From a virus (lineage: Duplodnaviria > Heunggongvirae > Uroviricota > Caudoviricetes), in the IMG/VR virus record IMGVR_UViG_2579778842_000006, positions 1-7,226 of that record: a stretch of 7,226 nt of DNA; one strand, written 5' to 3'. Both the position numbers and the translations under genes were made by a program. This document shows positions 1-744 of the stretch, piece by piece. Position 1 is the first letter of the stretch. The number at the start of each line of letters is the position of its first letter. Below the pieces are notes generated by a model. That model ran no database searches, had not been told where the DNA came from, and saw nothing but the letters and a program-made list of their open reading frames with translations.

Positions 1-232
1 AACCATAAGGCACTAACAGCCAGTGCGCCTGAAGGAAATGCAATAGGGAAATTACCTGTAGTTCCGTTAGTGTCCGCCCCATAAACATTCATCGAAAACA
101 TTTGGACAATATGACCACTTGGTAACTGAAACCAGTTTTTGCCAGATGGAAATGCAGACATATCTGGTATCTGATTTTCCCCTGTTCCCACGTTCCGTTT
201 TGCCGCTTCTCCCAAACCAACGTTTTTATGCA
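1..232 (-). CDS. Tail-fibre variable C-terminal cassette B, partial: runs off the left edge, has no start codon of its own, begins at crossover site 2
   Basis: Minus-strand frame open from 236 to position 1, with TGA at 239..237 just upstream. By hand translation it reads [76 protein letters not shown]. The first residues (KNVGLGE) are encoded by the 26-bp crossover site, as in cassette A. First in-frame ATG is only at 161..159 and has no Shine-Dalgarno. Not in the supplied ORF track because it is open-ended. Confidence 0.45.
207..232. other. Hin/Gin/Cin/Pin-family crossover site 2 (TTCTCCCAAACC-AA-CGTTTTTATGCA), same orientation as site 1
   Basis: 26 bp with 12-bp half-sites flanking an AA core; the left half-site ends in the AAACC motif typical of hix/gix/cix sites (recalled from memory). 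Identical to site 1 at 21 of 26 positions, including an 18-bp perfect block (211..228 = 688..705). Overlaps the stop codon of cassette A and encodes the first residues of cassette B. Confidence 0.6.
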
Positions 233-744
233 GCTCTCACAATAAAGTTGAATGCAATATTGCGCGGTCGTGTTTCGCTCCCGCCTGTGTTACCAATACT
301 CCCTCGTGTATGTAGCGTTGGTGATGGAATCAGGGTTCCGCCTGCACTGGTACCATCCAGTCCCTTGCCCTGTGTATATGCTCTTCTGAAGATTGCCGCC
401 AGTTCCCATTCCTCTTTTGAGTCATACCCATCGTTGGCGACAACAGGATGACGGTGCTTTTCCAGCATTCCGGCCTGAATACTCAATAAAACACGTCCAG
501 CATCAATACCGCGCCCATCATCCCAGCCACGAATAAATTCACCGCGTAAATCAGGCAGTTTTCCTGACGGGTACGCTGTGGCTAGTTTGGGATACTTCAG
601 CTTATCAAAGGCAGCACCATTGCATTTTAGCCAGCCCTCTGGAGGTGTGGCTGAAGGCCACGGAACTGTTACACCAACAGGCAACGCAGAACCTTCCCCC
701 AAACCAACGTTTTTAACTTCGAAAACAGAGCTATCTAATAGCAT
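226..744 (-). CDS. Tail-fibre variable C-terminal cassette A (Mu S / P1 S / e14 StfE-type receptor-binding domain); the functional cassette probably begins at crossover site 1 rather than at the ATG
   Basis: 172-aa ORF. Contains VPWPSATPPEGWLKCNGAAFDKLKYPKLATAYPSGKLPDLRGEF and ends NIAFNFIVRAA, matching the conserved C-terminus of Mu/P1/e14-type tail-fibre variable domains (recalled from memory). No Shine-Dalgarno before the ATG at 744 (minus-strand upstream sequence GTTTCTGTTAGTAAAA); in-frame stop at 774..772. The N-terminal KNVGLGEG is encoded by the crossover site. Confidence 0.75.
   Translation of the reverse strand: MLLDSSVFEVKNVGLGEGSALPVGVTVPWPSATPPEGWLKCNGAAFDKLKYPKLATAYPSGKLPDLRGEFIRGWDDGRGIDAGRVLLSIQAGMLEKHRHPVVANDGYDSKEEWELAAIFRRAYTQGKGLDGTSAGGTLIPSPTLHTRGSIGNTGGSETRPRNIAFNFIVRAA
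684..709. other. Hin/Gin/Cin/Pin-family crossover site 1 (TTCCCCCAAACC-AA-CGTTTTTAACTT), invertase-proximal
   Basis: 26 bp with AAACC-AA-CGTTT centre; lies 64 bp upstream of the invertase start and within the 5' end of minus-strand cassette A. This is the position gixR occupies relative to gin and Sv' in phage Mu (established knowledge). Confidence 0.6.

What the first reader, a model, noticed from the sequence alone, without database searches (positions are those of the whole stretch)
226..744. Fibre cassette A has no dedicated tail-fibre assembly (Tfa/U-type) gene; cassette B starts immediately after its stop
In the Mu G segment, P1 C segment and e14 P region each variable fibre cassette is followed by its own chaperone gene. 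Here site 2 overlaps the cassette A stop codon and cassette B begins at once, leaving no room for a chaperone ORF. The cassettes either fold without a cognate chaperone, share a single chaperone encoded elsewhere, or cassette A is a decayed remnant.
Basis: partly seen in the sequence, partly recalled or inferred. Interest (0 to 1): 0.45.

Follow-up and report, generated by a model that had tools for sequence, protein, structure and literature searches.

The report
Fibre-tip cassette sharing a neighbour's chaperone
A silent phage tail-fibre tip cassette really has no chaperone gene of its own, because it belongs to a known multi-inversion switch that can place it upstream of a sister cassette's chaperone gene, so the finding is real but ordinary.

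Summary
Cassette A (window 226-705, minus strand) ends with a stop codon that lies inside crossover site 2 (207-232). Cassette B starts at that site, and no Tfa-like ORF exists in any frame of 1-760.

The window is a P88-like (Xuanwuvirus) P2-family prophage. The full locus, read in E. coli OkiPb01713, is: fibre gene H with a collar-type tip, Tfa-200, then on the other strand Tfa-147, cassette B (gp53-type) and cassette A (collar-type), then a Gin-like invertase. That makes three in-frame crossover sites, three tips and two chaperones.

A is a T4 gp37-like tip, intact and under purifying selection (dN/dS about 0.1). In E. coli ETEC1749 the identical cassette (480/480 nt) sits in the expressed position, followed by a second collar cassette and then the Tfa-200-type gene. 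Two site-specific inversions of the window's layout produce exactly that isomer.

In 85 related loci, 56 of 165 collar cassettes are followed directly by the next site. Arrays of 2-9 collar cassettes share one Tfa-200-type gene, as in a p15B/Min-like layout on a P1-like plasmid.

The best explanation is a shared chaperone. The decayed-remnant reading is rejected. This is a new member of a known kind and of low interest.

The parts
1..218 (-). Cassette B, a silent variable 3' part of the tail-fibre gene of the gp53-like type. It starts at the inner half of site 2 and runs off the left end of the window.
   Evidence: Frame 3-236 (minus strand) is open and reads [26 protein letters not shown].... 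It hits Pfam Gp53-like_C. In the parent locus L001 it continues to 13870 and is followed by a 147-aa Tfa.
207..232 (+). Crossover site 2: TTCTCCCAAACC AA CGTTTTTATGCA, core AA at 219-220. Its outer half contains the stop codon of cassette A (226-228).
   Evidence: The same stop-in-site junction is present after 56 of 165 collar cassettes in related loci.
226..705 (-). Cassette A, a silent variable 3' part of the tail-fibre gene. It is a collar-type, T4 gp37-like tip of 160 codons counted from the inner half of site 1, and has no Tfa gene of its own.
   Evidence: Pfam Collar, E = 1e-14. PDB 2XGF (T4 gp37 tip), E = 1.3e-18, with an aligned HxH motif and the C-terminal NIAFN(Y/F)IVR. dN/dS is 0.07-0.14 against 40 relatives. 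It is 480/480 nt identical to the expressed tip of ETEC1749.
694..719 (+). Crossover site 1: TTCCCCCAAACC AA CGTTTTTAACTT, core AA at 706-707. This is the invertase-proximal border of the invertible region.
708..744 (-). A 12-codon leader (MLLDSSVFEVKN) with the ATG that gives the annotated 172-aa ORF. It lies outside the invertible DNA and is probably an annotation by-product.
   Evidence: In UMNK88 the same leader is fused to cassette B. The leader is not conserved in other lineages.
773..1372 (+). Serine DNA invertase of the Gin/Hin/Cin/Pin/Min family.
   Evidence: Pfam Resolvase plus HTH_7. It aligns to Gin (PDB 4M6F) over residues 1-181 with E = 1.4e-88, roughly three quarters identical by eye.
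1361..1392 (.). A 13-bp-stem hairpin between the converging invertase and gpU genes, resembling a terminator in both directions.
1401..1889 (-). P2 gpU-like tail protein, the last gene of the inverted FI-U tail operon that occupies 1401-6969 on the minus strand.
   Evidence: Pfam Phage_P2_GpU; annotation of L001.

Best explanation
Cassette A is a working spare tip of a three-site, Gin-type multiple-inversion switch in the tail-fibre gene of a P88-like P2-family prophage. It needs no chaperone gene of its own because it uses the 200-aa Tfa that follows the other collar-type cassette.

Layout, shown in the parent locus: Hc-[s0]-Hv-Tfa200> <Tfa147-B-[s2]-A-[s1]-invertase. Site s0 is inverted relative to s1 and s2. 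All three sites share the core dinucleotide and the reading frame (..LGLGE..).

Inversions between s0 and s1 or s2, and afterwards between s2 and the invertase-proximal site, give four isomers:
- I1: Hc::Hv-Tfa200 (the window's state)
- I2: Hc::B-Tfa147
- I3: Hc::A-B-Tfa147
- I4: Hc::A-Hv-Tfa200

In I4, A is expressed and the matching collar-type chaperone gene lies downstream in the same orientation, behind the untranslated sister cassette. It can start translation on its own from the GAGAG/GAGGG in the conserved ..IVRAA codons (inferred).

One chaperone can serve several tips because collar cassettes keep a conserved frame and vary only in the middle. By homology with T4 gp37, the middle is the distal, receptor-binding part (inferred). 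The end of each cassette (GCA-stop-AAACG) doubles as the outer half of the next crossover site, which is why the cassettes abut.

Shown here: the anatomy, cassette integrity, the existence of the I4 isomer in nature, and the Tfa-type/tip-type synteny. Inferred: that Tfa200 physically chaperones A, and that I3 is less productive or unproductive.
For: Anatomy:
- Sites and frames and the whole locus.
- In-silico isomers all give open fusions of 465-509 aa.

Cassette A is functional:
- It is intact, with dN/dS 0.07-0.14 against 40 relatives.
- 166 of 168 collar cassettes in 85 loci end with N[YF]IVRxx-stop.

The I4 isomer exists in nature:
- ETEC1749 (L005) has Hc::A, a second collar cassette, the Tfa-200-type gene, then in reverse Tfa147 and B, then the invertase.
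- There A is 480/480 nt identical, the invertase 600/600 and B 99.7%.
- The chimeric Hc::A junction query matches full length in ETEC1749 and rl0044.
- Aligning the in-silico I4 form of L001 to L005 gives a 100% block that ends at the s2 core. The first mismatch is 9 nt past it; on the s0 side the last mismatch lies 19 nt before the core. A second 100% block runs from Tfa147 through B and the invertase into the tail genes. Hv and Tfa200 are only 82-86% identical.

Chaperone type follows tip type:
- A-family tips are followed by a Tfa-200-type gene in 25 cases, and abut the 3' end of an opposite-strand one in 14.
- The same pairing is seen in APEC E12053 and in Mu-like prophages.
- All 25 gp53-type cassettes are followed by their own Tfa-147-type gene.
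- The two Tfa proteins share only their C-terminal ~80 aa (33% identity). That fits the published model of a variable fibre-binding N-domain and a conserved trimerising C-domain (PMC9608196).

Chaperone need:
- A matches the T4 gp37 tip 2XGF. gp37 needs gp38 and gp57A to fold (PMC9608196).

Sharing is common:
- 56 of 165 collar cassettes are followed at once by the next site.
- 21 loci have 2-9 collar cassettes with one Tfa-200-type gene.
- Within arrays the N-terminal 72 aa are 74-95% identical, the C-terminal 18 aa about 80%, and the middle has a similarity ratio of only about 0.25.
- A P1-like plasmid has 6 cassettes and 1 Tfa in about 3.4 kb.

Inversion at such sites is documented experimentally:
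- EC958 prophages, by PacBio reads (PMC4134206).
- A three-cassette gin shufflon with isoforms at 50/25/25%. That is the ratio four equally frequent isomers would give (PMC13418256).
Against: - No direct test shows that Tfa200 folds A.
- ETEC1749 is not a strict isomer of the window's prophage: its Hv and Tfa200 alleles are 82-86% identical and its Hc about 83%. I4 is therefore demonstrated for the cassette and the switch, not for this exact genome.
- The one-step inversion s0 x s1 gives I3, where the co-transcribed chaperone is the gp53-type Tfa147.
- In single-Tfa arrays the Tfa gene is anti-oriented to the fibre gene in 5 of 11 loci where both can be seen. Co-orientation with the chaperone gene is therefore not strictly maintained.
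- The AlphaFold monomer model of A was unusable (pLDDT 39), so there is no structural support beyond sequence homology.
Confidence: 0.72

Rival explanations
1. A uses cassette B's chaperone, Tfa147. A single inversion (s0 x s1) puts Hc::A directly upstream of B-Tfa147 (isomer I3). On this reading the conserved C-terminal Tfa domain would be enough, and the physical linkage A-B-Tfa147 seen in the window is the functional unit.
For: In the window's state, A, B and Tfa147 are contiguous and co-oriented. I3 gives an open 509-aa fusion. Tfa147 and Tfa200 share a C-terminal domain.
Against: The N-terminal, fibre-binding domains are unrelated (PMC9608196). Among 168 collar cassettes the window's is the only one followed by a gp53-type cassette. 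Collar tips are otherwise always associated with the Tfa-200 type.
Confidence: 0.12
2. A folds without any phage Tfa. It would be self-sufficient, or would rely on host or general chaperones.
For: A has no Tfa gene of its own. In about half of the single-Tfa arrays the Tfa gene is antisense to the fibre gene.
Against: A is homologous to the T4 gp37 tip, which requires gp38 and gp57A. It has no C-terminal intramolecular chaperone domain: Pfam finds only Collar, and the protein ends like gp37. Every complete collar array still keeps at least one Tfa-200-type gene.
Confidence: 0.1
3. A is a decaying orphan, or a passenger that arrived recently by excision and re-insertion of a site-bounded cassette, and has no role in this phage.
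For: Some near-identical prophages lack it, for example UMNK88. The identity block is bounded by the crossover sites. The B-A combination is unique in the census.
Against: The ORF is intact and dN/dS is about 0.1. The cassette is 100% identical in an expressed position in ETEC1749 and rl0044. Two ordinary inversions explain the positional difference fully, with no need for excision.
Confidence: 0.05

Closest known systems
Min multiple-inversion region of plasmid p15B (Sandmeier, Iida, Arber and co-workers, 1990-1992). The papers were not readable here, so details are from memory. A P1-like plasmid, L087, was examined as a present-day example.
   Same: A Gin-family serine invertase next to the region. 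More than two crossover sites placed in frame at the constant/variable junction. Tandem collar-type 3' cassettes that abut one another. Fewer Tfa genes than cassettes: L087 has 6 cassettes and 1 Tfa in about 3.4 kb. The site sequence is the same type, TTCYCCCAAACC AA CGTTT...
   Different: This locus has only three sites and three cassettes, and mixes two tip types (collar and gp53-like) with two chaperone types. It sits in a P2-family (Xuanwuvirus) prophage rather than a P1-like plasmid.
Mu G segment (Gin), P1 C segment (Cin) and e14 P segment (Pin)
   Same: The invertase is about three quarters identical to Gin. The Hv-Tfa200 >< Tfa147-B core is a classical two-cassette, two-chaperone invertible segment. 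The same core occurs in Mu-like prophages.
   Different: Those systems have two sites and one chaperone per cassette (established knowledge). Here a third site and a third cassette without a chaperone gene are appended on the invertase side.
Three-cassette gin tail-fibre shufflon of the Enterobacter temperate phage FRphi (PMC13418256)
   Same: Three alternative C-terminal fibre parts, a gin-type recombinase downstream, and inversions shown by long reads. The isoform ratio of 50/25/25% is what four equiprobable isomers of a layout with one site on one side and two on the other would give.
   Different: It is a different phage type. The text I read did not describe its chaperone gene content, so whether a cassette there also lacks a Tfa is unknown.
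Invertible tail-fibre regions of E. coli EC958 prophages, Phi2 in particular (PMC4134206)
   Same: Collar-domain variable parts and 26-bp sites of the same sequence type, including a poorly symmetric half on the constant side (TCCTCAATTACCTT GGTTTAGGAGAA). Inversion was observed in PacBio reads.
   Different: A simple two-site mirror-image arrangement in which each allele has its own downstream gene.
T4 long tail fibre tip gp37 with its chaperones gp38 and gp57A (PDB 2XGF)
   Same: A shares the collar domain, the first HxH motif and the C-terminal NIAFNYIVR with gp37. gp37 depends on a separate chaperone (PMC9608196).
   Different: A is much shorter (160 aa against about 240 in the crystallised fragment), has one HxH motif instead of several, and has a different middle part. 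The partner chaperone here is a lambda-Tfa-type protein (Caudo_TAP).

Membership tests
Gin/Hin/Cin/Pin/Min (Din) invertase-driven fibre switch | Small serine recombinase with an N-terminal catalytic domain (Ser near residue 10) and a C-terminal HTH, encoded next to the invertible DNA. | tested here: met
   Pfam Resolvase 2.3e-51 plus HTH_7. Aligns to Gin 4M6F over residues 1-181 with E = 1.4e-88, including the conserved YVRVSTNDQ motif. The gene is at 773-1372, 54 bp from site 1.
Gin/Hin/Cin/Pin/Min (Din) invertase-driven fibre switch | 26-bp crossover sites made of two imperfectly symmetric 12-bp halves around a 2-bp core, with the same core in all partners and at least one pair in inverted orientation. 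| tested here: met
   Sites s1 and s2 are in the window and s0 is in the fibre gene of the parent locus. All have core AA/TT, and s0 is inverted relative to s1 and s2. The constant-side half of s0 is degenerate, as in EC958 Phi2, where inversion was observed.
Gin/Hin/Cin/Pin/Min (Din) invertase-driven fibre switch | Recombination fuses alternative 3' parts in frame to a constant 5' part of a tail-fibre gene. | tested here: met
   In-silico isomers give open fusions of 499, 465 and 509 aa. Natural Hc::A and Hc::B fusions are found in other genomes.
Gin/Hin/Cin/Pin/Min (Din) invertase-driven fibre switch | Fis-dependent recombinational enhancer, usually inside the 5' part of the invertase gene. 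| not tested
   I did not search for Fis sites.
Min-type multiple-inversion system (shufflon-like) | More than two crossover sites, giving overlapping invertible segments and more than two isomers. | tested here: met
   Three sites give four isomers. Two of them (I1 and I4) are seen in sequenced genomes with the identical cassette A.
Min-type multiple-inversion system (shufflon-like) | Tandem cassettes that abut, each preceded by a site, with fewer Tfa genes than cassettes. | tested here: met
   The stop codon of A lies inside site 2. There are 2 Tfa genes for 3 cassettes. The same junction follows 56 of 165 collar cassettes. L087 has 6 cassettes and 1 Tfa.
Mu G / P1 C type two-cassette segment | Each variable cassette is followed by its own Tfa/U-type chaperone gene. 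| tested here: not met
   Met for Hv (Tfa200) and B (Tfa147) but not for A.
T4 gp37-like collar/needle fibre tip | Phage tail collar domain, followed by HxH motif(s), with a C-terminus that returns to the collar (..NIAFNYIVR..). | tested here: met
   Pfam Collar 1e-14. 2XGF at E = 1.3e-18, with KHRH aligned to AHSH and the C-terminal 24 residues aligned. Trimer formation and metal binding cannot be tested with these tools; the AF2 monomer model failed.
Fibres with a C-terminal intramolecular chaperone (Peptidase_S74 type) | An autoproteolytic chaperone domain at the C-terminus. | tested here: not met
   Only Collar is found by Pfam at E <= 0.01. The protein ends at the gp37-like terminus.
Caudo_TAP (lambda Tfa / Mu U / P2 G) chaperone encoded within 1-760 | An ORF with similarity to Tfa proteins in any frame. 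| tested here: not met
   A profile of 102 Tfa sequences gives scores below 0 on all 18 stop-to-stop segments of 30 aa or more.

The most novel reading that the evidence does not exclude
The chaperone may be supplied regardless of gene orientation. In Min-type arrays the single Tfa gene flips with every inversion and is antisense to the fibre gene in about half of the sequenced isomers. In this window's system, one of the two A-expressing isomers pairs A with the other tip type's chaperone. If these isomers still make working fibres, then one of two things holds. Either Tfa is expressed independently of the fibre operon, for instance by read-through from the inverted FI-U late operon that converges on the invertible region in P88-like phages. 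Or Tfa proteins are far less tip-specific than thought. Either result would change how fibre/chaperone pairs are chosen for host-range engineering.
Probability: 0.12. Interest if true: 0.5.

Novelty: new member of a known kind. Interest (0 to 1): 0.2.

Why it matters
It has some practical use for annotation and phage engineering. Collar-type (gp37-like) tip cassettes in enterobacterial prophages form a pool of units bounded by crossover sites, with a conserved frame and a hypervariable middle. Several of them can be served by one Tfa-200-type chaperone gene.

It also shows that a 'phage tail protein' ORF of about 170 aa next to an invertase is a spare tip, not a gene with its own start. If the four isomers of this layout are equally frequent, the chaperone-less cassette would be the most often expressed tip, at 2 of 4.

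It does not open a new question. Multiple-inversion fibre switches have been known since p15B Min and were recently re-examined experimentally.

Tried and rejected
I replaced them with a local profile search of all stop-to-stop segments.
- AlphaFold2 on cassette A, with 24 close homologues as the alignment, gave pLDDT 39 and pTM 0.31. This was expected for an intertwined trimer with a shallow alignment. The model is unusable, so I ran no fold search.
- NCBIfam has no model for A, B or either Tfa.
- The original p15B papers and the Johnson review are not in the library, so details of Min are from memory and from the P1-like plasmid L087.
- The phage P88 paper says nothing about the invertase or the chaperones.
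- I considered whether the ATG at 744 marks a real gene for a free tip protein. I rejected this: the leader lies outside the invertible DNA, is fused to whatever cassette lies there, and is not conserved across lineages. My extraction of that region was crude, however.
- I considered site-specific deletion as the origin of the genomes that lack A next to the invertase (UMNK88, ETEC1749, rl0044). The hybrid site there is equally the product of inversion. In ETEC1749 and rl0044, A has simply moved to the expressed position. For UMNK88, which lacks A, deletion or ancestral absence cannot be told apart.
- I considered read-through from the converging FI-U operon as the source of antisense Tfa expression. 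A terminator-like hairpin at 1361-1392 argues against it, and P1-like plasmids have no such converging operon.
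Full report
**What is in the window**

The 7.2-kb window comes from a P2-family prophage of E. coli. Bases 2-1400 are 100% identical to strain OkiPb01713 and 99.9% identical to ETEC4085. Among sequenced phages, the closest are phage P88 and its relatives, genus Xuanwuvirus.

On the minus strand lie the tail sheath, tube, E/E', tape measure and gpU genes (6969..1401). A Gin-like serine invertase is at 773-1372 on the plus strand. The fibre cassettes occupy the first 720 bases.

**Checking the observation**

Two direct copies of a crossover site are present:
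- site 2 at 207-232: TTCTCCCAAACC AA CGTTTTTATGCA
- site 1 at 694-719: TTCCCCCAAACC AA CGTTTTTAACTT

A 22-mer search with up to three mismatches finds only these two in the 29.4-kb parent locus, with none expected by chance.

Cassette A is open on the minus strand from the inner half of site 1 (705) to a TAA at 226-228, which lies inside the outer half of site 2. In another frame, cassette B reads from site 2 leftwards ([26 protein letters not shown]...) and runs off the window.

A profile built from 102 Tfa proteins scores below zero on every stop-to-stop segment of 1-760 in all six frames. The observation therefore stands. The only correction is that the ATG at 744 and its 12-codon leader lie outside the invertible DNA. 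In UMNK88 the same leader is fused to cassette B, so the annotated 172-aa ORF start is probably a by-product of annotation.

**The whole locus**

In OkiPb01713 (locus L001) the order is:
- baseplate genes
- fibre gene H, 499 aa, with a Phage_tail_fib N-terminus and a Collar tip
- a 200-aa Tfa
- on the opposite strand: a 147-aa Tfa, cassette B (gp53-like) and cassette A (Collar)
- the invertase

The fibre gene contains the third site, s0, in inverted orientation at the constant/variable junction. It reads ..LLAYLGLGEGS.., with the sequence TTCTCGCATACC TT GGTTTGGGGGAA. All three sites have the same core and the same reading frame. The constant-side half of s0 is degenerate. That is also true of the corresponding site of EC958 prophage Phi2, where inversion was seen directly in PacBio reads (PMC4134206).

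The system therefore has three cassettes, two chaperone genes and three sites. Cassette B and the expressed tip Hv each have a Tfa; cassette A has none.

**What cassette A is**

A carries a Phage Tail Collar domain. It matches the crystallised tip of the T4 long tail fibre protein gp37 (2XGF, E = 1.3e-18) in three places: the collar, the first HxH motif (KHRH against AHSH) and the C-terminal NIAFN(Y/F)IVR. It has no C-terminal intramolecular chaperone domain. gp37 needs separate chaperones, gp38 and gp57A (PMC9608196).

A is not decaying:
- dN/dS against 40 relatives of 71-91% amino-acid identity is 0.07-0.14.
- 166 of 168 collar cassettes in 85 related loci, silent or expressed, end with the conserved N[YF]IVRxx-stop.

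**Where its chaperone is**

The two Tfa proteins of the locus share only their C-terminal ~80 residues, at 33% identity. This fits the published picture of a conserved trimerising C-domain and a variable, fibre-binding N-domain (PMC9608196).

Across 85 loci the Tfa type follows the tip type:
- All 25 gp53-type cassettes are followed by a Tfa-147-type gene.
- Collar cassettes are associated with the Tfa-200 type only.
- A-family tips are followed by a Tfa-200-type gene in 25 cases, and abut the 3' end of an opposite-strand one in 14.
- The same pairing holds in APEC E12053 and in Mu-like prophages whose fibre is only 256 aa.

The expressed tip Hv of this very locus is a collar tip followed by Tfa-200. 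A and Hv share their first ~70 and last ~18 residues and differ in the middle.

**The decisive comparison**

In E. coli ETEC1749 (locus L005) the order is Hc::A, a second collar cassette, the Tfa-200-type gene, then on the opposite strand Tfa-147 and B, then the invertase. There A is 480/480 nt identical to the window's cassette, the invertase 600/600 and B 99.7%. A chimeric Hc::A junction query matches full length in ETEC1749 and rl0044.

I built the four isomers that inversions between s0, s1 and s2 can produce from L001:
- I1: Hc::Hv-Tfa200, the window's state
- I2: Hc::B-Tfa147
- I3: Hc::A-B-Tfa147
- I4: Hc::A-Hv-Tfa200

All are open fusions. ETEC1749 has the I4 topology.

I then aligned the in-silico I4 form with L005:
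- The 100%-identity block of A ends at the s2 core. The first mismatch is 9 nt beyond it; on the s0 side the last mismatch lies 19 nt before the core.
- A second 100% block runs from the 3' part of Tfa-147 through B and the invertase into the tail genes.
- In the window's I1 arrangement these two blocks are contiguous.

The simplest history is therefore a shared ancestor followed by site-specific inversions. The left arm (Hc, Hv, Tfa-200; 82-86% identity) was exchanged by ordinary recombination.

This shows that the switch moves A into the expression site, and that in one of the two A-expressing isomers the matching chaperone gene lies downstream in the same orientation. That Tfa-200 actually folds A is inferred from this evidence, not shown.

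**How common this is**

- Of 165 collar cassettes with readable downstream sequence, 56 are followed at once by the next crossover site. The stop codon sits at the same position of the outer half-site: GCA-TAA/TGA/TAG-AAACGTT|GGTTTGGGGGAA.
- Twenty-eight of 85 loci have two or more collar cassettes. In 21 of these a single Tfa-200-type gene serves 2 to 9 cassettes.
- Within arrays the N-terminal 72 residues are 74-95% identical and the C-terminal 18 about 80%. The middle has a similarity ratio of only about 0.25.
- A P1-like 96-kb plasmid carries six cassettes and one Tfa in about 3.4 kb next to its invertase. This matches what I remember of the p15B Min region: 3.5 kb, six crossover sites, six alternative 3' ends. 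Those papers could not be read here.
- A three-cassette gin shufflon in an Enterobacter phage was recently shown by long reads to give isoforms at 50/25/25% (PMC13418256). Four equally frequent isomers of a layout like this one would give that ratio, with the A-like cassette at 50%.
- The one unusual detail here is that the cassette following A is of the other tip type. This is the only such case among the 168 collar cassettes.

**Open points**

- Isomer I3 pairs A with Tfa-147.
- In single-Tfa arrays the Tfa gene is antisense to the fibre gene in 5 of 11 loci where both can be seen.
- Either such isomers are dead ends, or chaperone supply or specificity is looser than assumed.
- A terminator-like hairpin at 1361-1392 argues against read-through from the converging FI-U operon as a source of antisense Tfa expression.

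**Verdict**

The locus is a small Min-type multiple-inversion fibre switch grafted onto a classical two-cassette segment. It is a new member of a known kind, and its interest is low.

Noticed in passing
window 1401-6969 (minus strand) and 7127-7226 (plus strand): The tail operon FI-FII-E-E'-T-U is inverted relative to phage P2 and converges on the invertase and the invertible fibre region. gpD starts at 7127 on the other strand, divergent from FI. The same order is found in phage P88 (L086), so it appears to be a trait of the P88-like group (genus Xuanwuvirus).
   Followed up: partly
window 1361-1392: A perfect 13-bp-stem hairpin (AAAAACCGCTAAT/ATTAGCGGTTTTT) sits between the converging stops of the invertase and gpU genes. 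It resembles a terminator in both directions.
   Followed up: partly
window 4901-4907 (minus strand): A TTTTTTG run lies at the E/E' overlap. A -1 shift there joins the E frame (..VAVNFL..) to the E' frame (..FFERCGLW..), as in the programmed frameshift of the P2 tail operon. This was read from the sequence only.
   Followed up: no
window 708-744 (minus strand); L002 12218-12257: The ATG and 12-codon leader that turn the invertase-proximal silent cassette into an annotated ORF lie outside the invertible DNA. They are therefore fused to whichever cassette is there: A in this window, B in UMNK88. The leader is not conserved in other lineages.
   Followed up: partly
loci L020, L031, L036, L055, L068 versus L004, L005, L038, L042, L044: In arrays with a single Tfa gene, that gene is antisense to the fused fibre gene in about half of the sequenced isomers. 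How the chaperone is supplied in those states is unexplained.
   Followed up: partly
L001 11352-13453 versus L002 and L005: The prophages are mosaic. The block Tfa147(3')-B-(A)-invertase-tail is 100% identical between OkiPb01713 and ETEC1749, while Hv and Tfa200 are only 82-86% identical and the fibre constant part about 83%. One breakpoint coincides with a crossover site.
   Followed up: partly
proteins P0025, P0027, P0030, P0032, P0037, P0041, P0077, P0108; L088 4001-4771: 256-aa fibres of Mu-like prophages carry an A-type collar tip. Several public records name them 'integrase', and one 'microcystin-dependent protein'. These are misannotations.
   Followed up: no
L002 9351-10852 and 4977-6928: In UMNK88 the corresponding prophage has a frameshifted fibre gene and an IS3-family insertion in the virion morphogenesis gene, so that copy is probably defective.
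   Followed up: no
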